The notes under the pieces: model-generated
Databases searched by the model: none
The model's input: only the letters and a program-made list of their open reading frames with translations
What the model was told of the DNA's origin: nothing
In this document: piece by piece, positions 48,559 to 64,000 of the stretch
Layout of the letters: each line of letters opens with the position of its first letter
Numbering within the stretch: the first letter of the stretch is position 1
Program-made: the position numbers and the translations under genes
DNA from: an uncultured Desulfuromonadaceae bacterium
GTDB taxonomy: Bacteria; SDB-A
Reading direction: 5' to 3'
Length of the DNA: 64,000 nt
Assembly: GCA_964397545.1 (NCBI GenBank)
Contig: CAYNIW010000001.1
Location: forward strand, 24,714 to 88,713

Positions 48559-50520
48559 ATGAAACCCTTCAAGCTCCTGATAGATTACGAAAAAGAACTC
48601 AACGAAGAACAGCTTGACGCCGTCCGTCATGTTGACGGCCCGCTTCTTGTTATAGCAGGCGCGGGAAGCGGAAAGACAAGAACACTCGTCTACAGGGTCG
48701 CTTTTCTCGTCGAAAACAGAATACAGGCTCAGAACATACTGCTGTTGACTTTCACAAGAAAAGCCGCTCAGGAGATGCTCAGAAGAGCTTCGACGCTTCT
48801 CGACGAGAGGTGTTCAAACGTAGCGGGAGGAACTTACCATTCTTTTTCATATCTTATTCTCAGAAAATACGCTGACAGGATAGGATTCAAAAGAGGTTTT
48901 ACGGTTCTCGACAGGTCGGATTCGGAAGATCTGATAAACCTGATAAGAGCCGATATTGGCCTCTCTTCGAAAGAGACGAGGTTTCCGAGAAAAGACACCC
49001 TCGGAGACATATTCAGCAAAGCAGCCAACTGTCTTACAGACGCGACGGCAATCGTAGAAAAACAGTATCCTCAGTTTTACCATCTCTCTGAGGATATTGA
49101 AGTCGTGAGAAAAAGATATGAAGAGACCAAAAAAGAGGACAACCTCATGGATTACGACGACCTGCTCGTCTACCTGAAAGAGCTTTTGGAAAAAAACCCG
49201 GGGACAAGAGAAAAGCTGAGTTCTTTTTACAGATATATCATGGTGGATGAATATCAGGACACAAACAAAATTCAGTCCCGAATAACATCTCTGCTCGCTT
49301 CCGGGCACGGCAATGTCATGGCGGTCGGAGACGATTCACAGAGCATATATTCCTTCAGAGGGGCAAATTTCAAAAACATCATGGATTTTCCCAATCTTTT
49401 TCCGGGAACAAAAATTGTGACCATAGAGAAGAACTACAGAAGCACAGCGCCAATTCTCAATCTGACAAACGAAATAATTTCTTTTGCATCAGAGAAATAT
49501 TCAAAAAAACTCAGAACAGACATCAGAGGGGGAAGAAAACCTTTTTTTGTCGAAACTCAGGATGAAAACGAACAGTCACGTTTTGTATCTTATAAAATAC
49601 TCGAACTTCGTGAAGAAGGAGTCTCTCTCAACGAAATGGCTGTCCTGTTCAGAGCGGGGTGGCATTCAAACGACCTTGAGCTGGAGCTTAAAAAATTCGG
49701 AATCCCGTTCAGAAAGTTCGGAGGGATAAAGTTCACCGATGCTTCCCACGTAAAAGACGTTTTGGCTTATCTTAAGGCTTTCAAAAATCCGAAAGATTCA
49801 GTCAGCTGGTTCAGGATTCTCAAGCTGATAGAAGGGATAGGTTCCAAGACAGCTCAAATCCTGCACGCGGAGGTAGGACGAAATGGCGGCATAGAAAAGG
49901 TTGAAAAAAAACTTTATTCGTCTAAAATCTACTGTTCGGTCCTGGAAGAGCTGAAAAAAACCGCTTCTTTTGTGAACGACGAGACGACAAGGGCTTCAGA
50001 TGCCGTAAGAACCGTTCTCGATTTTTACAGAGAAATTTTCATGAGAGTTTACAGCGAAGATTATCCCAAAAGAGCCAACGATTTAGATTCGCTCGTCATC
50101 GTAGCCGAAAGATATTCCTCCGTTGAGGAGTTTTTGACCGATCTGACTCTCGAGCCTATAGAGAGGAGCCAGGCCGGGACGACGAGAGAAAATGACGAAG
50201 ACGAAATACTGACGCTCTCGACTGTCCATTCGGCGAAAGGGCTTGAGTGGAATTCTGTCTTCATACTTCAGCTTGTAGACGGATATTTTCCTTCTTCATA
50301 TTGTTTCGAGGAGCCCGAGGAAATGGAGGAGGAGAGAAGGCTTTTATACGTTGCGGCGACGAGGGCGAAGAGAAATCTTTATCTCGTAAAGCCGGGATAC
50401 CTCAACCCCGCGAGGAATTATTTCGGGTTCAGCTATTACGGCACTTCGCAGGTTTCGAGGTTCTTATCAGAGGGAAGAATTCTTCAGGATTTTGTCGAGA
50501 GGGTTAACGCTGATGTCTGA
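48559..50520 (+). CDS. uvrD: ATP-dependent DNA helicase, UvrD/PcrA/Rep family
   Basis: LNEEQLDAV ... AGAGSGKT Walker A, motif II MVDEYQDT, C-terminal helicase domain. Confidence 0.85.
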   Translation: MKPFKLLIDYEKELNEEQLDAVRHVDGPLLVIAGAGSGKTRTLVYRVAFLVENRIQAQNILLLTFTRKAAQEMLRRASTLLDERCSNVAGGTYHSFSYLILRKYADRIGFKRGFTVLDRSDSEDLINLIRADIGLSSKETRFPRKDTLGDIFSKAANCLTDATAIVEKQYPQFYHLSEDIEVVRKRYEETKKEDNLMDYDDLLVYLKELLEKNPGTREKLSSFYRYIMVDEYQDTNKIQSRITSLLASGHGNVMAVGDDSQSIYSFRGANFKNIMDFPNLFPGTKIVTIEKNYRSTAPILNLTNEIISFASEKYSKKLRTDIRGGRKPFFVETQDENEQSRFVSYKILELREEGVSLNEMAVLFRAGWHSNDLELELKKFGIPFRKFGGIKFTDASHVKDVLAYLKAFKNPKDSVSWFRILKLIEGIGSKTAQILHAEVGRNGGIEKVEKKLYSSKIYCSVLEELKKTASFVNDETTRASDAVRTVLDFYREIFMRVYSEDYPKRANDLDSLVIVAERYSSVEEFLTDLTLEPIERSQAGTTRENDEDEILTLSTVHSAKGLEWNSVFILQLVDGYFPSSYCFEEPEEMEEERRLLYVAATRAKRNLYLVKPGYLNPARNYFGFSYYGTSQVSRFLSEGRILQDFVERVNADV

Positions 50521-51430
50521 GGGCACAATTAAAGAAGTCTGCGGAAAGATAGTATCCGGTCTCAAGAATCTGGGTGCTGAGGTCTCAAAAGAAAAAGCTA
50601 TAGCGAACGGAGTCCAGTTTTACGTAGAGAGTCCTTTGGGGAAGGGTCATGTCCGGGTATATTCGAATAAAAAAAAAGGAACGGTGATTGACTGTTCACA
50701 GATAGACAGCGCGGAGCTCGCTGAAGCTGTCAAGCAAATCGGAAGCGGCAGTGCTCCCTTTTTTAGGAAAGAAAAAAAAGAAATGGAATATCCCATTATC
50801 GGAAGCGACGAGTCAGGCAAGGGGGATCTTTTCGGTCCTCTCGTCTGCGCGTCTGTTTTCGCCGACGAGCCGGATCTGTTAAAGCTTTCCAAAATGAACG
50901 TCAGGGATTCGAAAAAAAACAGCGATACTGCCAATCTCGCCTTATCCGATAATATAAAAAAATTTTTAGGGACGAAATCTCAAACGCTGATTCTGTCTCC
51001 CTGCGAGTATAACAAAACTTACGCAGAATTGGCAAAAAAAGGGAAAAACTTAAACGACCTGCTCTGTGAATGCCATAGACAATGCATTCTGGGACTTGCC
51101 AAGAGGCACAAGCCCAAGACAGTGGTTGTAGATAAATTTTCTTCATGTTCTTTTGACGGAGAAATTTTTGAAAGAACAGTGTTTTCATACAGAGCGGAAG
51201 AAAACCCTGTTGTAGCGGCGGCATCGGTCCTGGCGAGAGCGGCTTTTCTGACGGAGATTAAAAAAATGTCTCAAAAATACAAAATTGCAATACCGACGGG
51301 CTCGTCGGAAAAAGCGTATTTAGCCGCAGTCAGGCTCGCCCAAAAACGGGGCAAAGACGAATTGCCAATGGCGCTGAAGACCAATTTTAAGACCGCGGCA
51401 AAGGTCTTGTCCTCTATTTTCTCGACATAA
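50513..51430 (+). CDS. rnhC: Ribonuclease HIII
   Basis: N-terminal TBP-like domain followed by RNase H fold with IGSDESGKGDLFGPLV catalytic motif; start at ATG 50513 overlapping the uvrD stop. Confidence 0.7.
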   Translation: MSEGTIKEVCGKIVSGLKNLGAEVSKEKAIANGVQFYVESPLGKGHVRVYSNKKKGTVIDCSQIDSAELAEAVKQIGSGSAPFFRKEKKEMEYPIIGSDESGKGDLFGPLVCASVFADEPDLLKLSKMNVRDSKKNSDTANLALSDNIKKFLGTKSQTLILSPCEYNKTYAELAKKGKNLNDLLCECHRQCILGLAKRHKPKTVVVDKFSSCSFDGEIFERTVFSYRAEENPVVAAASVLARAAFLTEIKKMSQKYKIAIPTGSSEKAYLAAVRLAQKRGKDELPMALKTNFKTAAKVLSSIFST

Positions 51431-51478
51431 GAAGGGGAAAAAGAGTAAAATTCATTTTAAGATAAAAAAGGAGATTTA

Positions 51479-52780
51479 ATGCCTGTAACCGCGGTAGTAG
51501 GAGCCAATTGGGGAGATGAGGGGAAGGGAAAAATGACGGATTATTTCGCAAAAAATTCCGACATAGTAGTTCGATTTCAGGGGGGAAACAACGCGGGGCA
51601 TACCATAATTAACGATTTCGGAAAGTTTGCACTTCATCTTCTGCCTTCCGGTGTGTTCTACGGTCACGTCACTAATGTCCTGGGCCCCGGAGTGGCTCTG
51701 AACATAAGAAGTTTCATCCAAGAGCTCGAGATGCTCGGAAAAAGCGGCGTCCCGGCGCCAAAAATACTCGTGTCTGACAGGGCTCAGGTCGTAATGCCTT
51801 ATCACCTGCTCTTTGACGCATGCGAAGAAGAGAGGCTGAAGGAGAAAAAATTCGGTTCGACGAAATCGGGAATCGCGCCTTTTTATTCGGACAAATACCT
51901 CAAGACGGGAATAGAAGTGTCACAGCTTTTCGACAGAAAAAATCTTTCTGATGCGGTGAGAAAAACAGTGGAGATAAGAAATGTAGTGCTCCAAAATCTT
52001 TACGGAAAAAAATCTCTCGAAGCAGAAGAGATTATTGAGGAAATGGAAAGACAGGCGGAAATAATAAAACCTTTTCTCGCTGACACGACAATATTTTTGA
52101 GAAACGCTCTTGATGAAAAGAAAAAAATACTCCTCGAGGGACAGCTCGGGACTTTGAGAGATCCCGATCACGGTATCTATCCTTATTCTACTTCTTCTTC
52201 ACCTTTGGCGGGTTTCGCCGCCGTTGGAGCTGGTGTCCCCCCTTACGAAATAAAAGAAGTGGTTGCCGTTGTAAAGGCTTATTCAACCTGCGTCGGAAGC
52301 GGACCTTTTGCCACGGAGATATTCGGCGAAGAAGCCGAAGAGCTGAGAAAAAGAGGAGGAGACGCCGGAGAATACGGAGCGACTACGGGCAGACCCCGCA
52401 GAATGGGCTGGTTCGACTGCGTCGCGACGAGATACGGATGCATGGTTCAGGGAGCGACGCAGGCTGTCCTGACAAATCTCGATGTCCTCGGTTATCTTGA
52501 AAAAATACCTTTATGCACCGCATACGATACGGAAAAGGGCAGTAAAATAAAAAACTTTCCGACGACGACAGTCCTCCAAAAATGCCTGCCAGTCTATGAA
52601 TATATGGAGGGATGGAAAAAAGACGTCTCAAAAACGGAGAAATTCGAAGACCTTCCCGACGAGGCGAAAAGGTATCTGGAAAGGATAGAGAAAGAAATCC
52701 GAATCCCTGTGTCATGGGTGTCTGTTGGACCTAGGCGCGCCGAGCTCATAAAAAGAGACGGCGCGCGCATATTCAGCTGA
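51479..52780 (+). CDS. purA: Adenylosuccinate synthetase
   Basis: GANWGDEGKGK P-loop and GGNNAGHT motifs. Confidence 0.9.
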   Translation: MPVTAVVGANWGDEGKGKMTDYFAKNSDIVVRFQGGNNAGHTIINDFGKFALHLLPSGVFYGHVTNVLGPGVALNIRSFIQELEMLGKSGVPAPKILVSDRAQVVMPYHLLFDACEEERLKEKKFGSTKSGIAPFYSDKYLKTGIEVSQLFDRKNLSDAVRKTVEIRNVVLQNLYGKKSLEAEEIIEEMERQAEIIKPFLADTTIFLRNALDEKKKILLEGQLGTLRDPDHGIYPYSTSSSPLAGFAAVGAGVPPYEIKEVVAVVKAYSTCVGSGPFATEIFGEEAEELRKRGGDAGEYGATTGRPRRMGWFDCVATRYGCMVQGATQAVLTNLDVLGYLEKIPLCTAYDTEKGSKIKNFPTTTVLQKCLPVYEYMEGWKKDVSKTEKFEDLPDEAKRYLERIEKEIRIPVSWVSVGPRRAELIKRDGARIFS

Positions 52781-52809
52781 AAATTTCAGAATTTTCGTCA
52801 GAACTTTCG

Positions 52810-53739
52810 TCAGAAAAGAGACAGATAAATTTTAGCTCTCTCTTCGGCAGGACCTTTCATGCCTGTGTAAAAATTCGTGAAAGTTATGGTTCCGCCGTTT
52901 GTCCCCCCCTCTTTCCACCTGAAGGCTACGGGAGATTCGGAAAGCCATTGACTGCCATCAACCGGAACGGTCGCGCGTATGAGGACGGTAGTCCCTGTCT
53001 GGACCATGCTAATCGGCGGGAAGGGCATCGCGAATACGACCCCAATTGTTCCTCCTGTGTATTCGGAGAGTTCCGAGTCTAATTCAACAGAAGTGGCGGT
53101 TCCCGCCACGCCTTCTCTCGTGTCTCTCTCGAACCTTCCCGGGAACATGTTCTGAAGCCAGAAATAAGCGTTGCCGGAGACGTAGAGGTAGTTGCCCTGC
53201 TGTTCTGCCCAGTTTTTAAGTTCGGCAGGATAAGAGGTCGCGGCATAACCGCTGTCGGAGACCAAAAAGACGTATTTTCTCTGGTTCAGATGGGAGGCGT
53301 TGAGGTCGGGGAGTCTCACTGAGTCATAGGCAATGCCGGCGGTTTTCAGGACTCCCGGCAGTTCGTCCCAAAAATATTTTCCGTAGACGACGAGAAAGTA
53401 TCCGCTCGTCGGGACTGTTGAATTGAGCGTCCTCGAAGACGTGTCGTTTTTGACGACGGTCACAGTCGCAGAAGCCGTGAAGACGCCCTTTGTCGCCGTC
53501 AGAACCTGATCGCCTGCGGGGACATTCTGAAGGAAGAAATAGCCGTCGGAGCCGGTCGTCGCGGTTACATTACCCGCCGTCACAGTGGCGCCGGGAACGG
53601 GCATTCCACCCGAGGGAAGGCGGAAATAACCGTCTATACAGCCGGCGTTGGTCGGCTGGGTAGGAGAGGAATCTTTTGTGCATGATGAGAAGGCAAAAAG
53701 AGCCAAAACGGCGATTGCCAAGATAGAAATATTTTTCAT
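52810..53739 (-). CDS. Secreted protein with carboxypeptidase-regulatory-like beta-sandwich domain, probable lipoprotein
   Basis: Start at ATG 53739 with aggagga RBS gives MKNISILAIAVLALFAFSSC lipoprotein signal; GATVTAGNVTATTGSDGYFFLQNVPAG region. Confidence 0.5.
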   Translation of the reverse strand: MKNISILAIAVLALFAFSSCTKDSSPTQPTNAGCIDGYFRLPSGGMPVPGATVTAGNVTATTGSDGYFFLQNVPAGDQVLTATKGVFTASATVTVVKNDTSSRTLNSTVPTSGYFLVVYGKYFWDELPGVLKTAGIAYDSVRLPDLNASHLNQRKYVFLVSDSGYAATSYPAELKNWAEQQGNYLYVSGNAYFWLQNMFPGRFERDTREGVAGTATSVELDSELSEYTGGTIGVVFAMPFPPISMVQTGTTVLIRATVPVDGSQWLSESPVAFRWKEGGTNGGTITFTNFYTGMKGPAEERAKIYLSLF

Positions 53740-53804
53740 CTGTCCTCCTTTTTGTTTAAGTCTAAAAAATTCTAACACAGACGGCATGTAAACTGAATGT
53801 CTCA

Positions 53805-54929
53805 TTATTTGACGGCGGTAAAAAGTTCGCTGACAGAGACGTTGTAGTGCAGTCTGTTGACGGTTGAAGCTATTCTCTTTGAAAGGCTGTGGAACTTGAC
53901 GAAATCGAGCTCAAGAATTTCGGGTATCTGGGGTATTGTGTCGGTGACGTGCATTTCCCTGAGCCCGTATTTTTCGTGAGCCTCGAGGAGCCCGGCGAGA
54001 TGTTTCTTTTTCATCTTAAGATGTGATATTGCGACATATATATCCTCTATGCCGTGGTTTGTATAAAGGTTTTTAGTCACGTTCAGAAAAGAACTGCCGG
54101 TCACTGTTTCGTCGTCTGTGATGAGGGCTGTTTTTTTTTCTTCGAGGTCGCCGATTACACCGAGCATGTCTGATTTGTCTTTGCTTTGGCGGAACTTGTT
54201 GACGATAGCGTGCGATATGCCCATGGCATCGGCAAAATGTATGGTGAACTTGGCTCCTCCGGAATCTGTTGAAACCGCTACCGCATCCTTTCGGTCTTTG
54301 AAAGAGGAAAAAATTTCAAGAAAAAGATCGAGGCCGCTGAGGGCGACAAGAGTCATGTCTGGTTCGTAGAGGCCGAAAAGAGAAAGAGCGTGAGGATGAT
54401 ATGTCAGGTGGATGTTTGCTCCCGCGACTTTGAGCTGGTCGGCGAAAAGCTTGGCGAGAGTGGCTTCCCTTTTCATAAAAGTCGGTTTGTCCTGCCTTGA
54501 ATAAGGAGAATAAGGCGTGACGACCGTAATTGTCTGAGCCCTGTGAGCTTTAAGTGTCCTTACTGCCTGCAGTAGCTGTTGGAGGTTTTCGTTTACAGTT
54601 TTGCCAGAGATGTTTTCGTGAATACACTGAAAAATAAAAGCGTTGGAACCCGCGACGTGCCTTGTGAGGCGCGGGCAGGTCTCCGAATCTTCGAAAATCA
54701 TCGTCAGAGGTTTTTCAAAGGTTCCGATTAAAGGTATCTCTTTCAGGTCGCTTCCGTTTATCCTCAGCATTTCCTCGTAATGTTCCTTCACGGATAAAGC
54801 GAGAGGGACTCCTGAATTGCAGGCGACAAACAAAAGCCAGCCGTTAGGCCCCAGCAGAAGGCGGCTCTTTGTCTTTTCGAATCTTTCCGGAGCAATGAAG
54901 TTTTGACTGAACTTGTCCATGTTTATCAT
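53805..54929 (-). CDS. Ribose-phosphate pyrophosphokinase (PRPP synthetase) family protein, divergent
   Basis: Parallels Prs in PYSPYSRQDK, HPHA, AVSTDSGG, TDDETVTGSS and TDTIPQ, but has an N-terminal extension and an altered PRPP-binding loop (VTGSS in place of DTGGT). Confidence 0.55.
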   Translation of the reverse strand: MINMDKFSQNFIAPERFEKTKSRLLLGPNGWLLFVACNSGVPLALSVKEHYEEMLRINGSDLKEIPLIGTFEKPLTMIFEDSETCPRLTRHVAGSNAFIFQCIHENISGKTVNENLQQLLQAVRTLKAHRAQTITVVTPYSPYSRQDKPTFMKREATLAKLFADQLKVAGANIHLTYHPHALSLFGLYEPDMTLVALSGLDLFLEIFSSFKDRKDAVAVSTDSGGAKFTIHFADAMGISHAIVNKFRQSKDKSDMLGVIGDLEEKKTALITDDETVTGSSFLNVTKNLYTNHGIEDIYVAISHLKMKKKHLAGLLEAHEKYGLREMHVTDTIPQIPEILELDFVKFHSLSKRIASTVNRLHYNVSVSELFTAVK

Positions 54930-54948
54930 TTATACCTCCATATTAAAT

Positions 54949-56310
54949 TTATGTCCCGGCGGGTTTCGTGTATGACCTGTAAAAATTCCTTCTGTATCCG
55001 TGAGAAGAGACTATTTTTCTGTAGGGAATGAAAAGATATGCGTTTGCCGCCGCCCTTCCGAGGACGACAGCCGCGGCGGCGGCATAAATCCCTACCATGT
55101 CGAAAAATTTTATCGCCGACAGCATAGTCAGAACTATTACTGCAACTTCCGTAGCTGTGGCGACCGTTATCGGATAAGTAAGCCTTGAATTGACGAGAAC
55201 GGACCTCTGCCAGGCGAGGAGAGAAGTCAAAGCAGGCATGAAAGAGAGTATGGCAAAAGGTATAGCCGTGAGAAAGAGCAGTTCACCGGAGAGGAACGAC
55301 ACGTGCTTGAACCACAGAAATGACAGAGGAGTTATTGATAAAACAGCTGGGATGATGCTGGTTATGAGTCCGAGTTTGAACACGAAATTTCTCAGAGGTA
55401 TGAAGTTTTCGTATTTTGCCCCAAGAAGGGCGAGACCCGCTTCCTGAAACGAAAAACCGAAACTTCTGAAGATAAAAACTAAAGCGTTAATGACGGGAAG
55501 AACAGCAAGGGATTCTATTGACATGCGTGATTTAGCCAGGAAAAAGGTCAGCAGAGGGTTTATTCCGAGAATAAGATACGACGTCATAGCGAGAGGATAG
55601 TAAAATGAGATTATCTCGCGCAAACCGAGCGTTTTGCCTTCCAGAGGCTCCGAAGTGACTTTTTTTACTGCTTTAACGCTCATAAGCCTTGTCGCGGCGG
55701 CTTCGAGCATCACTCCAGCTGAAAGGGAAGCGGCTCCGACAGAAGCTCCGGAGATGTCGGTAAAGAGAAAGAGAAAAATTCCAGTGACGGACATGACAAA
55801 AAGCCTGACGAAAGTTCCTGCGGCGACTTTTTTTGTCTGTCCCTGTCTAATGAGGATACCCTGATAAAATCGTCTGTATCCTATGGCTCCTGCCCACGGA
55901 AGCATCAAAATGGAAGAGGAATGTGCGAGAGAAGCGATTTGGGAGTTCAGTTTGAGGACATCTTTCGCGAGAAATTTAAATATGAATGGAACATTGATAA
56001 AGACGTGAAGAATTGTGACTGCGGCTATAATTGTAAATATGAAATTTCTAAGAGATATGTATTTTTTTCTGTCGTTGACGAGCGCCACCGAAGCAGACAA
56101 TATCATAACGACAGGCGCTTCAACGAGCAGAGCTATTGAAAAAGCGACTCCGTATGCGGCGAGATTGTATTTAGCGTCGTGAATTCTCCCGATTATAGCC
56201 GTTATGAAAGGAGCTTCCGACGCCATCATGAGCCATGTAAAAGAAAGGGGAAGCCAGAAGGCGAAAATCTGTCTTGAGGTCAATCCCTTTTCTTTTTCCG
56301 AATTCGGCAT
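54949..56310 (-). CDS. MOP-superfamily (MATE-like) exporter or flippase
   Basis: 453 aa, about 12 TM helices, MATE-like N-terminal region (ITAIIGRIHDAKYNLAAYGVAFSI). Confidence 0.5.
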   Translation of the reverse strand: MPNSEKEKGLTSRQIFAFWLPLSFTWLMMASEAPFITAIIGRIHDAKYNLAAYGVAFSIALLVEAPVVMILSASVALVNDRKKYISLRNFIFTIIAAVTILHVFINVPFIFKFLAKDVLKLNSQIASLAHSSSILMLPWAGAIGYRRFYQGILIRQGQTKKVAAGTFVRLFVMSVTGIFLFLFTDISGASVGAASLSAGVMLEAAATRLMSVKAVKKVTSEPLEGKTLGLREIISFYYPLAMTSYLILGINPLLTFFLAKSRMSIESLAVLPVINALVFIFRSFGFSFQEAGLALLGAKYENFIPLRNFVFKLGLITSIIPAVLSITPLSFLWFKHVSFLSGELLFLTAIPFAILSFMPALTSLLAWQRSVLVNSRLTYPITVATATEVAVIVLTMLSAIKFFDMVGIYAAAAAVVLGRAAANAYLFIPYRKIVSSHGYRRNFYRSYTKPAGT

Positions 56311-56387
56311 GCTTTAGATTAAAAAGGCATAGCTCAATGTTGTCAAATTTATTTTTATGGTTATATTTCATGGAAAAGGAGGTTTTA

Positions 56388-56621
56388 GTGTCAGTTAAAA
56401 TTTATACTACGCCTACATGTTCTTACTGCAATTCCGTAAAAACATATCTGCGTCAGAAAGGCATTTCATTCAGCGAAGTTGACGTGTCGAAAAATCAGAC
56501 GGCGGCAGATGAGATGGTCAGAAAGAGCAATCAATACGGAGTCCCTGTTATAGATGCCAACGGAAAGATAATTGTGGGTTTCAACAAACCAGCTCTCGAC
56601 AGAGCATTGAATTTAACCTGA
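56388..56621 (+). CDS. Glutaredoxin-like protein (thioredoxin fold, CxxC)
   Basis: CSYC active site, about 77 aa; GTG start at 56388 five nt after aaaggagg RBS. The upstream ATG at 56370 would overlap the RBS. Confidence 0.65.
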   Translation: MSVKIYTTPTCSYCNSVKTYLRQKGISFSEVDVSKNQTAADEMVRKSNQYGVPVIDANGKIIVGFNKPALDRALNLT

Positions 56622-56642
56622 ACTTTTGATGTATTTAGATCC

Positions 56643-58157
56643 TTAGATTTTGTCAATAATAGGATTCATGCTTCCGTCGGAAGGGCAGGAGGAGAGAACT
56701 TCTATCTGCGGCGAAACTTCGTGATCCTCGGGAATAAAAGGCGTCTTTTCTCTGATAAACTCCTGTATGAGCGACGTTCCTCTGCCGAGTTTTTCTCTTT
56801 TCTGACAGAGATCTACTGCCCTTGACGCCGAAAGAAACTCGATGGCAATAATTTTTGATACGAGTTCTGCTGATTCGAGGCATTTAAGTGAAGCGTTTGA
56901 TCCGAAACTGACATGATCCTCTCTCCCTGCAGAGGTGGGTATTGAATCCGAAGAGCAGGGATTTGCCTTGCTTTTGACAAGATTCAGAAGGGATGCGGCG
57001 GTCAGATGGGCTATCATATATCCGGATTCGACACCGGGTTCAGACGCGAGAAATGGAGGCAGTCCGCTTCTTTTGTCGTCGAGTATTAAGTCTATTCTTC
57101 TCTCCGATATTGCCGCTATATTGGAAAGCGCGAGAGAAAGAGAATCCATGGCGAAAGCTATGGGCTGGCCGTGAAAATTACCCCCGGACAGTATTTCGCC
57201 TTCTTCGGGAAAAACTATCGGGTTGTCCGTCACAGAATTTATCTCTACGCAGAGTGTTTTTTCGACGGACGCGAGAGCGTCCTTTAGGACTCCATGGACC
57301 TGCGGCATGCACCTTAAGGAATACGGATCCTGAACTCTGCGGTGGGATTCCGAACCGACGTTGGAACTGCCGCCGATGAACTTCCGGATGTTCTCCGCCG
57401 ATTGCATCTGGCCCGGATACGCTCTGAGCGCATGGATTTTTTGGTCGAAAGCTTCAGGCCTTCCGTCTAAGGCTTCGAGGGTCAAGGCTCCGGACATATC
57501 GCAGGAAAGGGATAAATTTTTCGCCTTGAAGAAAGAGAGGATACCGAGCGCAGTCATGAACTGAGTCCCGTTTAAGAGGGCGAGACCTTCTTTCGCCTTG
57601 AGGACGAGAGGCTTTAGCCCTGTTTTTGAAAAAAAATTTTGAGCCCGTATTTTTTCTCCTCTGAAAAATATCTCTCCCCTTCCGATAAGGCAGAGGGCGA
57701 GATGCGCGAGAGGGGCGAGGTCTCCCGACGCGCCTACCGATCCGAGAGAGGGAACGGCGGGGTAGGCTCTGAAGTTTAGGAAATCTTTGAGAAGCAGGAG
57801 AACATCGGTGCGGACGCCTGAATGGCCTTTTGCCATGACGCAGGCACGCAGAAACATCATCGCCCGGACAGCCTCCTCTGATAAAAGGGGTCCTGTCCCG
57901 CAGGAGTGGGAGAGGACGAGGTTCAGCTGGAGTTTGTCTATCATTGAAGCGGATATCTTTTTCTCGGCCAAAGAACCGAATCCAGTGTTTATGCCGTAAA
58001 CGGATGTCTTTCCTGAAGCGGCTTTCTCGACCGCGGACCTCGCTTTTTTTACTTTTTCAAGCGCGCTTTGGGTTATATCGACTTCAGCCATTCCCATCGA
58101 GACTTTAATCACTTCTTCAAGGGTTGTGTTTTTTTCAGATATAAAGACTTTTTTCAC
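56643..58157 (-). CDS. hutH: Histidine ammonia-lyase
   Basis: MIO-forming Ala-Ser-Gly triad within GSVGASGDLAPLAHLA; 504 aa. Confidence 0.85.
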   Translation of the reverse strand: MKKVFISEKNTTLEEVIKVSMGMAEVDITQSALEKVKKARSAVEKAASGKTSVYGINTGFGSLAEKKISASMIDKLQLNLVLSHSCGTGPLLSEEAVRAMMFLRACVMAKGHSGVRTDVLLLLKDFLNFRAYPAVPSLGSVGASGDLAPLAHLALCLIGRGEIFFRGEKIRAQNFFSKTGLKPLVLKAKEGLALLNGTQFMTALGILSFFKAKNLSLSCDMSGALTLEALDGRPEAFDQKIHALRAYPGQMQSAENIRKFIGGSSNVGSESHRRVQDPYSLRCMPQVHGVLKDALASVEKTLCVEINSVTDNPIVFPEEGEILSGGNFHGQPIAFAMDSLSLALSNIAAISERRIDLILDDKRSGLPPFLASEPGVESGYMIAHLTAASLLNLVKSKANPCSSDSIPTSAGREDHVSFGSNASLKCLESAELVSKIIAIEFLSASRAVDLCQKREKLGRGTSLIQEFIREKTPFIPEDHEVSPQIEVLSSCPSDGSMNPIIDKI

Positions 58158-58494
58158 AAAATCCTCCGTTTAAATGATAAAAAATATTTTATCAAATTAT
58201 CAGACCAAAAGAATACAAAAAACAGAAAAATCCACTGCGAAAGACTATCCGGTGTCATATATCTATACGAATTTAATAAGAAAGGACCAGATATTTTATG
58301 GTTACATAAAAAGCGTAACACGAAGAAAAATAAATTAAAGAAGAGGATTTAACCGCGAATTAACCTAAAAAGAAAATTAATGAATATACAAAATACTTAT
58401 CCAGAAAAGATCTCTTTTCCAAATCTACGTCTCTATAAAAAAAAGCACAGCCGCGCCGCTGACAGCAAACGCATGTAATAAATCGTTTTCTTTA

Positions 58495-59331
58495 TTATAT
58501 CTTTATTTGAAATACAAGAAAATATCCGTTGAAATGATGTTTCAATTTGAATGAAGTAAATATTTTTATTTCTTTTCTTGTAAAAGTTTTGTCCATTTTG
58601 TTTAAAGCAGTTTCCTTGTCAGTTTCAGAATGATATGGTAAAATGAAATTCAAAGTATTATCTGAAATTTCAGGGTATTTTTTTTCATTGAGTATGTTTC
58701 CTTCGGCTTTTACTTCAGTCATAATACGAAATCGAAGCTTCACCGATGCTTTATTAACATTTCTAACTTTGCTAAAATTTTCCTGTTCTGAAAATATTGA
58801 TGTTAACAATTCTTTGATTTTTGGCGTAATTTTTATATGTCTTTCAGTTAATCGTTCATTTAATACCTGTGAAAACGACGAACTGATAAGTTCTCTGGTT
58901 TGTATGGTTTCAAAGAAACTGCCATGAATCAATGCTATTTTTTGAGATGCCTTTTTTTTATTTTTACCTCTAACTAGATAATATACTTCTCTAATAGGTA
59001 ACGAATAAATATTATCTCCTGCGTCAACCATTTGTTGTCTAATGATACTATTTTCACCTTTTATAACTTTTTCAATTTCTTTTTTCCCTGTTGGAATAGT
59101 AGAATTAAATGAAGAAACAGTATAAGTATCGCTATCCTTAAGTTCTATTAACTCTCCACCAGTAAAAAGAGAATTATTAGATGTAAGTCTAATAGCTAAA
59201 TCAGGGAATTGACCTTTGTTTTGACATGATAACAATGAAGTATCAAAAGGAAAATCCTCTAATTTTACAATATTAATAAATTGTTTCTTTTGTAAAACCA
59301 AAGACTTGAAAAAATGATAAATAGAATACAT
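58495..59331 (-). CDS. Candidate Type II restriction endonuclease (PD-(D/E)xK-like), cognate of the adjacent methyltransferase
   Basis: Start overlaps the methyltransferase stop (TAATG); possible PD ... ELK catalytic motif (FPDLA ... GGELIELK); AT-rich codon usage; no other recognisable domain. Confidence 0.4.
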   Translation of the reverse strand: MYSIYHFFKSLVLQKKQFINIVKLEDFPFDTSLLSCQNKGQFPDLAIRLTSNNSLFTGGELIELKDSDTYTVSSFNSTIPTGKKEIEKVIKGENSIIRQQMVDAGDNIYSLPIREVYYLVRGKNKKKASQKIALIHGSFFETIQTRELISSSFSQVLNERLTERHIKITPKIKELLTSIFSEQENFSKVRNVNKASVKLRFRIMTEVKAEGNILNEKKYPEISDNTLNFILPYHSETDKETALNKMDKTFTRKEIKIFTSFKLKHHFNGYFLVFQIKI

Positions 59332-60209
59332 TAGCCGCCAAATAATAATGGTAATTGAGTAGTATTTTTGTTTTGAACTTCAAAATTATCACCCCAAATA
59401 TCATTCAAATTTTCAGTACATATATAATCTTTATAGTACTTTTGAATAAGATCGGATTCTCTTAGATTTTGCAAACGTTCTTTAATACAATTTGCATTTT
59501 CAGGATCAATTTCAATTCCTATTGAATTACGATGAAGTTGATGTGCTACGACTAATGTTGTTCCTGTTCCAGCAAAAGGATCAAAAACAAAATCACCAAC
59601 TTTTGATGACGTTAAAATTATTCGCAATAGTAATGCTATGGGTGCTTGTTGTTTATGCAATCTTTCTCCGCTTTTATTTCTAATTGCTTCATTCCCCGCA
59701 AAATATCCTGAAGTTAATTCCCTGATATCGTCCCAAACATCTGTTACATAAACTCCATTTTCTCGTTGTATTTTGAAACTTGCAGGCAATTCAGGTTCTA
59801 TTCGCAAACGATGAAAGGTATTTACTTTTTCACCTTTGGTTGCATAAACAATTATTTGGAAATGTTTTCCATATTTATTTGCAACTGGTACTGCTGATGT
59901 CTTTTTTTTCCAGACAATCAAATTTTGAAATATCCACCCAGTTTCTCGTAATATTTTTAATACAAATTCCGTATTTTTTTCACGTTGCATAAAATAAATA
60001 GCTCCGCCTATGTTTGTTATTTCATTAACATGTTGGCAAACTTTTTTCATCATTTTCCAGTATTCCTGCTCGCTCATATTATCATTATGAAATGCATAGT
60101 CCTTTTGCTGATTAAAAGGAGGATCTAAAAAAGTCAAATCAACATTTTGAGAAATCATTTTTTTCTCAAATGCGATTAAGCAATCATTATTTATTATTGT
60201 GAAATTCAT
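59331..60209 (-). CDS. Site-specific DNA methyltransferase, beta-class amino-methyltransferase (N6-adenine or N4-cytosine)
   Basis: Motif IV DPPF near the N-terminus and motif I FDPFAGTGTT near the C-terminus; that order defines the beta class. Confidence 0.75.
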   Translation of the reverse strand: MNFTIINNDCLIAFEKKMISQNVDLTFLDPPFNQQKDYAFHNDNMSEQEYWKMMKKVCQHVNEITNIGGAIYFMQREKNTEFVLKILRETGWIFQNLIVWKKKTSAVPVANKYGKHFQIIVYATKGEKVNTFHRLRIEPELPASFKIQRENGVYVTDVWDDIRELTSGYFAGNEAIRNKSGERLHKQQAPIALLLRIILTSSKVGDFVFDPFAGTGTTLVVAHQLHRNSIGIEIDPENANCIKERLQNLRESDLIQKYYKDYICTENLNDIWGDNFEVQNKNTTQLPLLFGG

Positions 60210-60439
60210 AATTGTTTATTTTAAGAACAGGTGACGATTTATTTTTTTTGAATTGTTGAAATAATAAACAGTAAAGAAATGATTAGGCATTTCACCTTCC
60301 TTGTAGTTTATAAAGAGAATAATAGAACCAAGACAAACACAAGTCAAATAAGGATTTTACTGTTTAATCCTCGCTAACCATAACTTGTTTTTTTAATTTC
60401 GGAATATGTTATTACTAGATTTGACTCAGGATTTTAACA

Positions 60440-60483
60440 TCTCATCGAGGAGAATTGACAAAATCTGTCAATAGTCAAGACCA
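60440..60483. repeat. 44-bp imperfect direct repeat, copy A (flanks the brnTA cassette)
   Basis: atctcatcgaggagaattgacaaaatctgtcaatagtcaagacc; about 84 percent identical to copy B at 61162-61205 in the same orientation. Confidence 0.6.
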
Positions 60484-60492
60484 GAAAAAATA

Positions 60493-60750
60493 TTACTGTC
60501 TGACTTGATAATGCAAAGTATATTTATCGAGAACCGTTTTTATCATTGTCTGATATGGAACCCCTGCTTTCTTTGCTTTCCTTTTAAAAAAATCTATGCT
60601 TTTTTTACTTAATAGAATTGTAATCTTAACGGTTTCTTCTTTTTTAACCAAATTTTCCGGCGCCGGAAGAAAATCTTCTATTACTTCAGAAGCAAGAACC
60701 GCTTCAGATACATATTTTGGGGCTTTTTTATATGTTATTTTTTTCTTCAT
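60493..60750 (-). CDS. brnA: BrnA-family antitoxin (DUF4415-like)
   Basis: 85 aa; C-terminal ...SIDFFKRKAKKAGVPYQTMIKTVLDKY fits the BrnA signature; immediately downstream of, and overlapping, a BrnT-like reading frame. Confidence 0.65.
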   Translation of the reverse strand: MKKKITYKKAPKYVSEAVLASEVIEDFLPAPENLVKKEETVKITILLSKKSIDFFKRKAKKAGVPYQTMIKTVLDKYTLHYQVRQ

Positions 60751-61006
60751 GCTTTTTTCTCCCTTCTCTCCAATATCCCGCTCCGAATATCCTGATTTTT
60801 TGATCCCTTATTGTAAATCTGACAGTTAAAATATCATTATCAATTTTTCCAAAACAGAAATATCTTTTTTCTCTTTTCGTTGAATGTTTTATATCAAGTG
60901 TTATTACTCTTTTTATATCAAAAAAAGCATTTTGAGCTTAAGAAAATGAAATTCCATGTTTTTGAATGTTTTCAATGTTTTTTACATCATCCCATTCAAA
61001 CTGCAT
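60728..61006 (-). pseudogene. brnT: BrnT-family toxin (DUF497-like) interrupted by an in-frame TAA at codon 23
   Basis: Manual translation of the minus strand gives MQFEWDDVKNIENIQKHGISFS*AQNAFFDIKRVITLDIKHSTKREKRYFCFGKIDNDILTVRFTIRDQKIRIFGAGYWREGRKKHEEKNNI, which fits the BrnT pattern across the stop (plus-strand tta at 60938-60940). Confidence 0.55.
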
Positions 61007-61161
61007 AATGACTAATATACATAATAAATACCATATATCAATACATATTTAATTTAAAAAACAATAAAAAATGTAATTTTAAATTGCGTCCAGCAATTTC
61101 AAAGGCTGTGTAGCTTTACGAGTTTAATATGAGAAGATATTCAACAAAACGGTTTATCATT

Positions 61162-61205
61162 ATCTCGTCGAGGGGAATCGTCAGAATCTGTCAAATGTCA
61201 AGACC
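61162..61205. repeat. 44-bp imperfect direct repeat, copy B (flanks the brnTA cassette)
   Basis: atctcgtcgaggggaatcgtcagaatctgtcaaatgtcaagacc; pairs with copy A at 60440-60483. Confidence 0.6.
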
Positions 61206-61275
61206 TGGCACCTAATCATAAATGTGATTTGTTAATTTAAAATTTTAAGATAAGAAAATTTAAACCACAAAGGTT

Positions 61276-61547
61276 TACTTATTTACCAAAGTAAAAAATC
61301 TTATTTACCTAAGTAAATAAGAGAGCTACAGGAAGGAGTAAATCATAAATGATTTTAATCTTATTTGCCTTCGGCAATTAAGAGAGCTACAAGAAGTAAA
61401 ACCAAAACTCACAAATTTCTTTTATTCACTTCGTGAAGGAAAAATGTATTCATTTTTCCCTTCGTGAAGGGATAAAGCAACGATTTATCCCGCTTCGTGG
61501 TGGAAATTGTATTTGTATTTATTATTAAGAAAAGATATCCACCGCGA
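61276..61547. repeat. Repeat- and hairpin-rich non-coding region: about 61-bp tandem duplication plus three consecutive perfect stem-loops
   Basis: Tandem units aatcttatttacctaagtaaataagagagctacagg... and aatcttatttgccttcggcaattaagagagctacaag...; hairpins at about 61438-61459, 61469-61491 and 61529-61547; recurring cttcgtgaagg motif. Confidence 0.5.
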
Positions 61548-61583
61548 AGGGCGGTGGTAGAAATATTCTTTGTCTTTTTTTCT

Positions 61584-61922
61584 TCAGCAGGTCAGATGTA
61601 AGGCGGCGGCGGTTTTGTGTTTTTCCGATATTTCGTTGAACTTAGCCGCGGCTGAAACTGAATAGAAAACTAAAACTTCACAGCCGAGAGAGGAGAATTG
61701 GTCGAAAACCGATCTTTCGACTTTCATCATGCCGAAAAAACCAGTGCCTATGACGAGAAACTCGGGGCTGTAATCTTTTACTTCCCTGAGGTCTTGGACC
61801 GATAGAAAATGCCCTTTTTCGCGGATCCAGGGGCAAATAACCTTCTCTCCGAGAATAAGTAAGTCCTTTACGTAAGTTTTTTTGTCAACTGTGATTTTCC
61901 CGAATGAATAGTCCTCTATCAT
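61584..61922 (-). CDS. Mth938-like domain protein (DUF498 family)
   Basis: 112 aa ending ...AAALHLTC with the pattern typical of Mth938-like proteins. Confidence 0.6.
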   Translation of the reverse strand: MIEDYSFGKITVDKKTYVKDLLILGEKVICPWIREKGHFLSVQDLREVKDYSPEFLVIGTGFFGMMKVERSVFDQFSSLGCEVLVFYSVSAAAKFNEISEKHKTAAALHLTC

Positions 61923-63466
61923 CTGTTTTTTCCGAGATAAAAAGAATAAAAACCCTCCGCGATAAGAAGCAGGAGGAGAATAAAAGTCAAAAAAGGGCTC
62001 ATGTCGTAGAGAACTTGCTTTTCAGCCCTGCGGATCATCTCATCAAGAGAGACCTCGTTGGCGAAAGAAAAAGAATCGGGGAAAAAATCCGAATTGCGTT
62101 CTTCCTGAGAGACAAAAGGGAACAGGTAGAAGCATCCTTGGTCATCGAACAAAGGGTTCAAAAAGATAAGAGGAAAGTCCCCACGCAGGTAAAGTGTTGA
62201 ATTTCCGGGGTTGAACGCGAAGATTAAGGCGTCTGAGCTTTTAATAACCGCGGGTCTTCCGTCGTCGAACCTGTTCAATATGTGGGCTGACAGATTATTA
62301 ACGTCGCCGGTGCATAAAGAGACCCTCGAAGAGACGACGGTTCCGAGAAAACCCTGAAAACCCTGTCTGATTACAGCAGGGCTGAGTCCGCTGTCGCGGA
62401 CAGAAACTTTGTATGAGGATTCGATATAATTTCCTATTTTCTTTCCGTCGTCGAGAAAAAAACATTTTTTTGCATTTTCAGGGAAGTTGAAATTAAAATC
62501 AATTTTCTGTGATTCATCGACAAAGACGAGAAAAGCATCTTCCGGCGAGAAAACCCTTTGAACCGAACCCCTCTGAAAAACAGAAGAAATACGGTTGTAG
62601 ATTTCCGTGTTGTTTGAAAATATACCGACTTTTTCTATCGGTTTTATCACTATGAATAATGTTTCGGCGTCGGATCTGAAAAACAGGGTTTCAGCGGCTG
62701 AGGCGACATGAACGGGCAGAAAAATTCCTTCTTCGGCATCCAAAAAAGTGTCAATGCCTGAATATGAGAAATTTATATTAAAACCGGGATTTGTCTGAAT
62801 AAAAATAAATGAAGTGTCGCCCATTACAGCCCATCCCGGGAATCGCGGAAATTTTACGGAAAATAAATACTGTTTTTCAGGATACGCTATGCAGTCGAAA
62901 AAAAAAGACAAATCATCCATTTTTCTCCAGGACACCTTTTGTCTGTCGGTTATGAGGAACAGGTTTTCTGCTTCTTTTTCCCTGCACAGAAGAACTGAAA
63001 GAGGTATGTCCGCAGTTCCGTCTTTTTCGCGGGGAGATGATAAAATGTCATAAAAACTTTCACCTGCTATTATCTGGGTCCTGCCCATACCCGTCACGCA
63101 AACCGCTTCGACAAGCTTCAGTAGTTTTTCCATTTCCGGTCTTTTGTCGTATATTCCGCTTCTCACTACGCTCTCTGAGATGTCCGCAACGAGAAAGCTT
63201 TTCGTCACCGTCCCAGTGAAAGGGAATTTGATGTTTGTGACAGGCCTTGAAAAAGCGGCGGCAATGCAGAGTATGACGAGAATTCTGAGTATGAGCTGAA
63301 TAATTTCCCTGAGCCGGAATTTTTTTCTCATGGGTATGCCCGAGTCTGGTATAAGACAAGATGCCGGAAAAAGAATTTCCTTTTTTCCGAACTTTCTCAT
63401 GAGATGGAATATGACGGGAAAGACAGCCGCGGCGGAGAGAAACAAAAACAAAGGGTTCAGGAACAT
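61919..63466 (-). CDS. BatA-like membrane protein (N-terminal double-TM domain, degenerate VWA-like region, C-terminal TM helix)
   Basis: N-terminal LNPLFLFLSAAAVFPVIFHLMRK double-TM segment as in BatA; DxSxS-like LVADISESV after TM2; hydrophobic C-terminus. Confidence 0.45.
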   Translation of the reverse strand: MFLNPLFLFLSAAAVFPVIFHLMRKFGKKEILFPASCLIPDSGIPMRKKFRLREIIQLILRILVILCIAAAFSRPVTNIKFPFTGTVTKSFLVADISESVVRSGIYDKRPEMEKLLKLVEAVCVTGMGRTQIIAGESFYDILSSPREKDGTADIPLSVLLCREKEAENLFLITDRQKVSWRKMDDLSFFFDCIAYPEKQYLFSVKFPRFPGWAVMGDTSFIFIQTNPGFNINFSYSGIDTFLDAEEGIFLPVHVASAAETLFFRSDAETLFIVIKPIEKVGIFSNNTEIYNRISSVFQRGSVQRVFSPEDAFLVFVDESQKIDFNFNFPENAKKCFFLDDGKKIGNYIESSYKVSVRDSGLSPAVIRQGFQGFLGTVVSSRVSLCTGDVNNLSAHILNRFDDGRPAVIKSSDALIFAFNPGNSTLYLRGDFPLIFLNPLFDDQGCFYLFPFVSQEERNSDFFPDSFSFANEVSLDEMIRRAEKQVLYDMSPFLTFILLLLLIAEGFYSFYLGKNR

Positions 63467-63969
63467 TTTTCAGACCAGAGTATTGAATAAAAGCCTTTTT
63501 CCTCGACATTCACATTTTTGAATATGTGCTTCATCCTCTGAGCATACCCTGCCGTCCTGTGGACGACAAAAGCCGCTCTTCCGCCTTTTTTAAGAGATAA
63601 AAAAGCTTCTTTGAGAATAAAATCAGCCACAGAGCCCCCGAAATGAGTCGGAGGGTTGGAAACAAAAAAATCCGCCTTTCCGTGGAGTCTTTGAGGGATA
63701 TGGTCTTCGAAAATAACCTCGCAGTTGCCGGTTTCGTTAATAGAAGCGTTGTATTTACAGCATTTAATTGAAATAAGGTTGTTTTCTATGAGATGGCATC
63801 TGCCGGTCTTTTTAGAAAAATAAATTCCTATCGCGCCGTATCCTGATCCGAAATCTATAAGGGTCGAATCTTTTTCGGGGAAGACATTCTCGATTAAAAT
63901 TTTTGTCCCTTCGTCTATCTTTTTTCTCGAAAAAACACCTGGTAGCGTTTTGAAAGACAAATCGTCCAA
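63457..63969 (-). CDS. Class I SAM-dependent methyltransferase (small-domain RsmC/RsmD-like)
   Basis: SAM motif IDFGSGYGAIGI and substrate-binding NPPTH (NPPxH-type) motif. Confidence 0.6.
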   Translation of the reverse strand: MDDLSFKTLPGVFSRKKIDEGTKILIENVFPEKDSTLIDFGSGYGAIGIYFSKKTGRCHLIENNLISIKCCKYNASINETGNCEVIFEDHIPQRLHGKADFFVSNPPTHFGGSVADFILKEAFLSLKKGGRAAFVVHRTAGYAQRMKHIFKNVNVEEKGFYSILWSEKCS

Positions 63970-64000
63970 AACAATCTTTCGGCTGAAATCATGCGTTTCC

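What the first reader, a model, noticed from the sequence alone, without database searches (positions are those of the whole stretch)
60728..61006. BrnT-like toxin silenced by a single in-frame TAA while the BrnA antitoxin stays intact
The minus-strand frame upstream of brnA reads as a full-length BrnT-like toxin (93 codons, overlapping the brnA start) except for a TAA at codon 23, in the KHG-x-SF region where the next residue is usually Glu, so a single GAA-to-TAA change is the simplest explanation. No alternative start exists downstream of the stop. This would be a domesticated or decaying TA module with an orphaned antitoxin, or alternatively a sequencing error hiding an active toxin.
Basis: seen in the sequence. 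Interest (0 to 1): 0.6.

Follow-up and report, generated by a model that had tools for sequence, protein, structure and literature searches.

The report
Nonsense-killed BrnT toxin, intact BrnA antitoxin
A small toxin-antitoxin gene pair, acquired by horizontal transfer in an uncultured bacterium, has lost its toxin to one real stop-codon mutation while the antitoxin gene remains whole; this is an ordinary stage in the decay of such modules.

Summary
The minus strand 61006..60728 reads as a full-length, 92-residue BrnT ribonuclease toxin (Pfam PF04365, E=4e-20, profile 1-74/77). It is interrupted only by TAA at codon 23 (60938-60940). It overlaps an intact 85-aa brnA (60493-60750) by 23 nt, the same geometry as in intact relatives. 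The stop is not a sequencing error. Ten assemblies from ten separate sequencing runs carry an identical sequence, and no intact allele appears among 5.8 billion protein clusters (closest 78% identity). TAA is a normal stop in this organism (15 of 40 long ORFs). Relatives have Glu or Asp at this position, and the relative closest by protein identity has GAA, so one G-to-T change explains the stop. Every family-invariant residue is kept and there is no second lesion, so the inactivation is recent. The truncated peptide lacks two of the five residues needed for RNase activity and the whole beta-sheet. The promoter and the brnA ribosome-binding site survive. The module lies in a 30%-GC islet (genome about 44%) next to a type II restriction-modification pair. 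The islet sits where a distant relative has a different gene. A 44-nt direct repeat brackets brnTA, and relatives are also repeat-flanked, at least one like an integron cassette. Verdict: real, but an ordinary decaying toxin-antitoxin locus. Whether BrnA is still selected is untested.

The parts
60728..61006 (-). brnT pseudogene: a full-length BrnT-family reading frame of 92 sense positions, interrupted once
   Evidence: Translation. Pfam PF04365 E=4.3e-20. Identity of 77-78% to intact 92-aa homologs, with all 31 invariant columns kept.
60938..60940 (-). Premature TAA at codon 23. A G-to-T change on the coding strand corresponds to C-to-A at + strand position 60940.
   Evidence: The homologous codon is GAA in L011/L110/L111 and GAT in L014/L108/L109. 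The sequence is identical in 10 independent assemblies.
60493..60750 (-). brnA antitoxin gene, intact, 85 aa, ribbon-helix-helix/CopG-like C-terminal part
   Evidence: PF14384 at 27.0 bits against a cutoff of 26.1, with a weaker CopG_antitoxin hit. It is 64-73% identical and colinear with the BrnA partners of intact relatives. The exact protein is found on at least 24 contigs.
60759..60763 (-). GGGAG Shine-Dalgarno for brnA, 8 nt upstream of its ATG, inside the 3' end of brnT
   Evidence: Read from the sequence. Conserved in L011 and L014.
61014..61041 (-). Promoter-like site TTGATA-16-TATATT. It ends 7 nt before the brnT ATG, which would give a leaderless or nearly leaderless transcript.
   Evidence: Consensus scan, 10 of 12 matches. 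The homologous block TATTGACATATGGCAnAT.ATATGTATA is conserved directly upstream of ATG in all six relative loci (five distinct upstream sequences; L110 = L111). There the -35 is TTGACA.
61162..61205 (+). 44-nt direct repeat, the copy upstream of brnT
   Evidence: the repeat finder D1, 84% identity to the other copy. There are only two copies in the 64-kb window and none expected by chance.
60439..60482 (+). 44-nt direct repeat, the copy 10 nt after the brnA stop. It contains the palindrome TTGACA-N5-TGTCAA.
59331..60209 (-). Type II DNA methyltransferase (N6/N4 class), in the same low-GC islet
   Evidence: PF01555 E=8e-44. PADLOC MTase_II E=2e-37.
58495..59331 (-). 278-aa ORF overlapping the methyltransferase stop by 1 nt. 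It is a presumed restriction endonuclease with no family assignment.
   Evidence: No Pfam, NCBIfam or PADLOC hit. Of the 5 homolog loci fetched, 4 have an MTase-sized gene abutting or overlapping it upstream: 3 with an N6_N4_Mtase Pfam hit (L103, L104, L105) and one contig-end gene that was not looked up (L107). There are more than 1500 homologs. The endonuclease role is inferred from position only.
58200..61540 (.). Low-GC islet (about 29-31% GC against about 44% for the window) holding brnT*, brnA and the restriction-modification pair, between the DUF498 gene and hutH
   Evidence: Composition profile. Terminator-like hairpins at both edges. The relative L023 has DUF498, a 380-aa gene and HAL at the equivalent place. 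No remnant of that gene is in the window.

Best explanation
This is a type II BrnT/BrnA toxin-antitoxin module that arrived by horizontal transfer in a 3.3-kb low-GC islet. It has since lost its toxin to one nonsense mutation, most simply GAA (Glu23) to TAA. Translation now ends after 22 residues. The peptide keeps the equivalents of B. abortus Asp6, Glu7 and Lys9. It lacks the Arg41 and Glu78 equivalents and the four-stranded beta-sheet, so no ribonuclease is made (inferred from family knowledge). The promoter directly upstream of brnT and the separate Shine-Dalgarno of brnA are retained, so BrnA is probably still produced (inferred). With the toxin dead, the module is no longer addictive. 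BrnA is either drifting towards loss or being kept as a repressor or as an anti-addiction antidote against incoming related brnTA cassettes or plasmids. The lesion is young: nothing else in brnT has decayed. It is fixed in the one clonal population sampled.
For: Shown by tool results. The family assignment and full-length colinearity hold. There is a single TAA, with GAA in the relative closest by protein identity. The sequence is identical in 10 assemblies from 10 runs, which also match the window over 3-13.5 kb. No intact allele exists in the 5.8-billion-cluster protein collection; the best hit is 78% identical. TAA ends 15 of 40 long ORFs, and the window is 85% coding under the standard code. 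The window's BrnT deviates at only 1 column that is at least 90% conserved (Y86H), against 0-4 for intact homologs. brnA is intact and conserved. The promoter scores 10 of 12, and the SD was read from the sequence. The islet is at 30% GC against 44%, and synteny with L023 is broken. From the literature: Asp6, Glu7, Lys9, Arg41 and Glu78 are needed for BrnT RNase activity (PMC5086665), and the alignment to 3U97 places D6/E7/K9 on window D6/D7/K9. Toxin-first decay and orphan antitoxins are well documented (PMC2654758, PMC7354431).
Against: Expression of BrnA is not demonstrated. The -35 box is TTGATA rather than the TTGACA seen in all relatives, and both arms of the putative operator inverted repeat differ from the relatives, so the promoter may be weakened. 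Early termination in brnT could also reduce brnA expression through polarity. All ten assemblies are the same clone, so they show that the T is real but not that it has persisted over evolutionary time. The ancestral codon is inferred from relatives that are only 77-78% identical.
Confidence: 0.85

Rival explanations
1. A sequencing or assembly error: the true codon is GAA and the toxin is active.
For: A single-base difference is all that separates the sequence from an intact gene.
Against: Ten contigs assembled separately from ten runs (ERR4539748, ERR4519280, ERR4519282, ERR4529291, ERR4539747, ERR4519279, ERR4519284, ERR4519281, ERR4524288, ERR4510095) carry the identical 279-nt sequence and an identical 900-nt surrounding region. 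No gene caller found an intact protein of this allele anywhere. The site is not in a long homopolymer.
Confidence: 0.02
2. Leaky or programmed read-through of the TAA gives a low, tolerated dose of full-length BrnT, so the module is attenuated rather than dead.
For: The rest of the frame is pristine: all 31 invariant residues are kept and there is one deviation at conserved columns. This is also what continued selection on the full-length product would produce.
Against: Recency of the mutation explains the pristine frame equally well. TAA is the standard terminator of 15 of 40 long ORFs here. The context is TAA-G with no recognisable recoding signal, and no Rfam element is nearby. UAA is generally the least leaky stop (general knowledge).
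Confidence: 0.04
3. BrnA has been domesticated. The antitoxin is kept under selection, either as an anti-addiction antidote against related cassette- or plasmid-borne BrnT toxins or as a transcription factor, and killing the toxin was the adaptive step.
For: brnA is intact, with its own SD and 50 of 85 columns invariant against partners of intact toxins. This brnTA lineage is mobile: relatives are flanked by direct repeats, and one (L109) sits next to a PIN-toxin gene in an attC-like array. More distant BrnT genes occur on 138 plasmids. The anti-addiction model is established for ccd (PMC2654758).
Against: Because the lesion is recent, an intact brnA is expected even under pure neutrality. No second brnT is present in the 64-kb window. 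There is no comparative series in which brnA outlives brnT, because all available sequences are one clone.
Confidence: 0.25

Closest known systems
BrnT/BrnA of Brucella abortus (Heaton et al. 2012; PDB 3U97), type II toxin-antitoxin system, Pfam PF04365/PF14384
   Same: The two families are the same and the gene order is the same, with the toxin first and the antitoxin overlapping it. The N-terminal W-D-(E/D)-x-K motif is conserved.
   Different: Here the toxin frame carries a TAA at codon 23. Sequence similarity to the Brucella protein is low: profile E=0.014 over the first 35 residues only. No biochemical data exist for this lineage.
Decaying chromosomal toxin-antitoxin loci and orphan antitoxins: ccdO157 in E. 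coli (Mine et al. 2009), the parE pseudogene with intact parD in Caulobacter, and frameshifted yacB with its antitoxin in Shigella
   Same: The toxin is inactivated by a point lesion while the antitoxin ORF remains. The locus sits in a horizontally acquired islet (PMC2654758 and PMC7354431).
   Different: The toxin family and the organism (an uncultured lineage) are different. This is a single clonal snapshot, so the order of decay cannot be followed across strains.
Integron gene cassettes carrying toxin-antitoxin modules with their own promoter
   Same: The cassette-like size is similar: 723 bp between repeats, against 795-799 bp in relatives L109 and L108. The module has its own promoter and is bracketed by direct repeats. 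The relative L109 has attC-like sites, with GGCTAAC and GTTAGCC at the ends.
   Different: The window's 44-nt repeats do not fold better than shuffled sequence. The downstream copy lacks AAC/GTT boxes. No integrase gene lies within 10 kb on either side.

Membership tests
BrnT toxin family (PF04365 / DUF497) | Sequence match to the family profile above the curated threshold over its full length | tested here: met
   72.2 bits against a cutoff of 34.5, profile positions 1-74 of 77. Identity of 77-78% to 92-aa family members.
BrnT toxin family (PF04365 / DUF497) | An uninterrupted ORF that can encode the whole domain | tested here: not met
   TAA at codon 23 and no downstream in-frame ATG, GTG or TTG. 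It is therefore a pseudogene of the family, not a functional member.
BrnT toxin family (PF04365 / DUF497) | Residues needed for RNase activity in B. abortus BrnT (Asp6, Glu7, Lys9, Arg41, Glu78) | tested here: inconclusive
   D6, D7 and K9 are aligned directly to 3U97. The alignment to 3U97 stops at residue 35, so the Arg41 and Glu78 equivalents could not be mapped. Invariant R48, R63, R67, R72 and R80 and near-invariant E81 exist in the conceptual frame after the stop.
BrnT toxin family (PF04365 / DUF497) | Ribonuclease activity and growth inhibition | not testable with these tools
   Requires expression assays.
BrnA antitoxin family (PF14384) | Profile match above the curated threshold and an adjacent, overlapping position downstream of brnT | tested here: met
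   27.0 bits against a cutoff of 26.1, which is marginal. The NCBIfam BrnA model scores 21.6 bits, below its cutoff of 60. The 23-nt overlap and 64-73% identity to partners of intact BrnT genes support the assignment.
BrnA antitoxin family (PF14384) | Neutralises BrnT and represses its own promoter | not testable with these tools
   Requires binding and rescue assays.
Integron gene cassette (attC-flanked) | attC sites with R''/L'' and L'/R' boxes (RYYYAAC ... GTTRRRY) forming an imperfect hairpin | tested here: not met
   The upstream repeat region has a weak AATTAAC...GTTGAAT arrangement, but its folding energy is worse than shuffles (z=+1.5). The downstream region has no AAC box and z is about -0.7 to -1.0. 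No formal attC model was available.
Integron gene cassette (attC-flanked) | A nearby integron integrase (intI) or a longer array of similar sites | tested here: not met
   There are only two copies of the repeat in 64 kb. No recombinase appears among the genes called within 10 kb on either side.

The most novel reading that the evidence does not exclude
The 44-nt repeats that bracket brnTA could be recombination sites of an undescribed, integrase-distant cassette system that moves promoter-bearing toxin-antitoxin modules into defence islets. On that reading, the orphaned BrnA would be kept as immunity against further cassette-borne BrnT toxins. A core of the repeat (GTCAGGTCTTGACTCTTGACAGATT) recurs in a few unrelated metagenome contigs with conserved bases beyond the search pattern, which hints at a wider element.
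Probability: 0.07. Interest if true: 0.45.

Novelty: new member of a known kind. Interest (0 to 1): 0.15.

Why it matters
It matters little beyond annotation. The locus should be recorded as a brnT pseudogene plus an intact brnA, not as an active toxin-antitoxin system or as an orphan antitoxin of unknown origin. It is a clean, datable example of the first step of toxin-antitoxin decay: the toxin is killed by one base change and everything else is still pristine. It occurs in an uncultured lineage, and this brnTA lineage appears to travel as repeat-flanked cassettes. If BrnA proved to be under selection, it would add a BrnTA case to the anti-addiction model, which rests on few systems.

Tried and rejected
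1. Alternative genetic code or TAA reassignment was rejected. TAA ends 15 of 40 long ORFs and coding density is 85% under table 11.

2. An alternative start after the stop was rejected: there is none.

3. A second brnT or brnA copy in the window was not found.

4. The search for the same locus in related genomes found no close relatives. A scan of genome representatives with the BatA-like neighbour found nothing. The five neighbouring proteins are singleton clusters at 90% identity. The closest representative genome has only 59% HAL identity.

5. No remnant of the gene that occupies the islet's place in that relative was found.

6. The 44-nt repeat as an attC site is not supported by folding or box inspection.

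7. The 44-nt repeat as part of the restriction-modification mobile unit was rejected. An 87%-identical pair in L103 has an unrelated upstream region.

8. A search for the repeat core found 0 viral hits and 7 metagenome hits (6 distinct sequences; L017 and L020 are the same), at about the chance number and with no common gene context. Five of the 7 hits (4 of the 6 distinct) share extra flanking bases. This is left unexplained.

9. There are no tRNA genes in the window and no Rfam hits near the islet.

10. BrnT has no relatives in phage records.

Full report
**Observation.** The minus strand from 61006 to 60728 translates as MQFEWDDVKNIENIQKHGISFS*AQNAFFDIKRVITLDIKHSTKREKRYFCFGKIDNDILTVRFTIRDQKIRIFGAGYWREGRKKHEEKNNI*. 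The only interruption is TAA at codon 23 (60938-60940). With that position masked, the protein matches Pfam BrnT_toxin (PF04365) at E=4.3e-20, covering profile positions 1-74 of 77. The next ORF, 60493-60750 on the same strand, encodes 85 residues and matches BrnA_antitoxin just above the curated threshold (27.0 against 26.1 bits), with a weaker CopG-antitoxin hit. The two frames overlap by 23 nt. No in-frame ATG, GTG or TTG follows the stop.

**Comparison with intact relatives.** A search of 5.8 billion protein clusters returned thousands of BrnT homologs. The best are 77-78% identical, and nearly all of the closest are exactly 92 residues long. In an alignment with 29 of them, all 31 invariant columns are kept in the window's conceptual protein. 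Position 23 is Glu in 14, Asp in 11, Ile in 2, and His and Lys once each. At the DNA level, L011, L014 and L015 have the identical geometry: brnT of 279 nt and brnA of 258 nt with a 23-nt overlap. The homologous codon is GAA in L011 and in L110/L111, and GAT in L014, L108 and L109. A single G-to-T transversion from GAA is therefore the most economical history. The ancestor is inferred from sequences only about 77-78% identical.

**Is the T real?** The exact BrnA protein is encoded on at least 24 contigs in public assemblies. Ten loci from ten different runs were fetched. All ten contain the identical 279-nt brnT sequence with TAA and an identical 900-nt surrounding region. Over 3 to 13.5 kb they match the window, with a single mismatch in one locus. 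This excludes a random sequencing or assembly error. It also shows that all available data come from one clonal strain, so they say nothing about how long the allele has persisted. No intact version of this allele exists in the protein collection. The five neighbouring proteins are singleton clusters at 90% identity. TAA is a normal terminator here, ending 15 of 40 non-overlapping long ORFs, and the window is 85% coding under the standard code.

**Consequence for the protein.** A review of the Brucella abortus work states that Asp6, Glu7, Lys9, Arg41 and Glu78 are needed for BrnT ribonuclease activity. It also states that the fold is a four-stranded beta-sheet packed against short helices (PMC5086665). 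A profile alignment to PDB 3U97 puts D6/E7/K9 on window D6/D7/K9 and Asp23 on the stop position. The 22-residue product therefore lacks two of the five required residues and the whole sheet. I infer a null toxin. This was not tested.

**Age of the lesion.** The window's sequence departs from columns that are at least 90% conserved at only one position (Tyr86 to His). Intact homologs show 0 to 4 such departures. There is no frameshift and no second stop. The inactivation is recent on the scale of sequence drift. Continued selection on a read-through product would give the same picture, but I rate that as unlikely.

**State of the antitoxin and the expression signals.** BrnA is colinear with the partners of intact toxins and 64-73% identical to them, with 50 of 85 columns invariant. 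A GGGAG motif lies 8 nt before its ATG, inside brnT, and is conserved in relatives. Directly upstream of the brnT ATG, all six relative loci (five distinct upstream sequences; L110 = L111) share the block TATTGACATATGGCAnAT.ATATGTATA. It reads as a -35 TTGACA and a -10 that ends about 7 nt before the ATG, which implies a leaderless message. The window keeps this block as TTGATA-16-TATATT, 10 of 12 consensus positions. It differs from the relatives in the -35 box and in both arms of a short inverted repeat that may be the operator. BrnA production is therefore plausible but unproven.

**Genomic setting.** GC content drops from about 44% to 29-31% between roughly 58200 and 61540. This islet holds brnT*, brnA, a type II N6/N4 DNA methyltransferase (PF01555, E=8e-44; PADLOC MTase_II) and a 278-residue ORF that overlaps the methyltransferase stop. 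That ORF has no family assignment. It has more than 1500 homologs. In the five loci fetched, four have an MTase-sized gene abutting or overlapping it upstream, three of them with an N6_N4_Mtase Pfam hit. It is presumably the restriction enzyme, but that is inferred from position only. The closest representative genome (59% identity for the adjacent histidine ammonia-lyase) has DUF498, then a 380-residue gene, then HAL at the equivalent place. No trace of that gene remains in the window. The islet is therefore a horizontally acquired insertion or replacement. The organism is an uncultured bacterium without close relatives among 185,579 species representatives.

**The flanking repeats.**
- A 44-nt direct repeat (84% identity) brackets brnTA at 61162-61205 and 60439-60482, 723 nt apart. 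There are no other copies in the window.
- Four of the five relative loci examined with the repeat finder also show direct repeats spaced 0.6-1.9 kb apart around brnTA; the search returned no flanking repeat in the fifth (L011). The sequences are unrelated to the window's repeat, and the spacings are 795 and 799 nt in L109 and L108.
- In L109 the repeats carry GGCTAAC and GTTAGCC at their ends and lie next to a PIN-toxin gene, as expected for attC sites in a cassette array.
- The window's repeats do not fold better than shuffled sequence. The downstream copy lacks the AAC/GTT boxes. No recombinase gene is within 10 kb.
- An 87%-identical restriction-modification pair elsewhere has an unrelated upstream region.
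- The repeats are thus consistent with a cassette-like origin of brnTA, but integron membership is not shown.
- The repeat core gave 0 viral hits and 7 metagenome hits (6 distinct sequences; L017 and L020 are the same), about the number expected by chance. Five of the 7 hits (4 of the 6 distinct) share extra flanking bases, and they have no common gene context. This remains unexplained.

**Comparison with what is known.** Inactivation of the toxin with retention of the antitoxin is a documented route of decay for chromosomal toxin-antitoxin systems. Examples are ccdO157, hok/sok, the parE pseudogene and frameshifted yacB. Orphan antitoxins are common, and most are remnants of degraded modules (PMC2654758, PMC7354431). 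BrnT relatives occur on 138 plasmid records at up to 56% identity and on no phage records. This keeps the anti-addiction reading possible but does not test it.

**Verdict.** It is a new instance of a well-known phenomenon, of low general interest. Its main value is correct annotation and a clean example of the first step of toxin-antitoxin decay.

Noticed in passing
window 61270-61400: The intergenic region upstream of the islet holds a roughly 61-nt duplicated unit (61315-61335 / 61376-61396 and 61297-61310 / 61357-61370). It carries AT-rich hairpins of the form CTTATTTAC..GTAAATAAG, with three hairpin copies in all. Their function is unknown; they may be remnants of earlier insertions.
   Followed up: partly
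window 61422-61483: There is a tandem 31-nt repeat (71% identity), and each unit contains the palindrome CTTCGTGAAG. It lies just downstream of a terminator-like hairpin after the DUF498 gene (61539-61557).
   Followed up: no
L016, L017/L020, L019, L022 (metagenome contigs): The core of the 44-nt repeat recurs as GTCAGGTCTTGACTCTTGACAGATT. These are GC-rich contigs with no shared gene context (L017 and L020 carry the same sequence), and bases outside the search pattern are conserved. L017 also shares a CCCCTCGAnnGAT tail with the window's upstream copy. It may be a small, widespread element or regulatory site.
   Followed up: partly
window 58495-59331 (-): This 278-aa ORF, coupled to the methyltransferase, has no Pfam, NCBIfam or PADLOC family. 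It nevertheless has more than 1500 homologs, many above 60% identity, with names spanning Bacteroidota, Nitrospirae, Desulfobacteraceae and a nanoarchaeal MAG. It is likely an uncharacterised, highly mobile type II restriction endonuclease family.
   Followed up: partly
window 61007-61045 and L011, L014, L108-L111 upstream of brnT: This brnTA lineage has a strongly conserved promoter block that ends about 7 nt before the ATG, with no Shine-Dalgarno. This suggests the toxin is translated from a leaderless mRNA while brnA uses an internal SD.
   Followed up: partly
L109 505-725 and 1300-1450; L108 1034-1075 and 1833-1874; L110 2200-2360 and 3949-4113; L014 5072-5925: Close intact relatives of this brnTA sit between long direct repeats. 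In L109 the repeats look like attC sites next to a PIN-toxin cassette. The lineage seems to circulate as gene cassettes.
   Followed up: partly
window 50493-64000 compared with L001-L010: Several of the independent assemblies break within 60013-60326, which is the 5' part of the methyltransferase gene and the spacer upstream of it. This may reflect low coverage of the 30%-GC islet. No breaks fall inside brnT or brnA.
   Followed up: no
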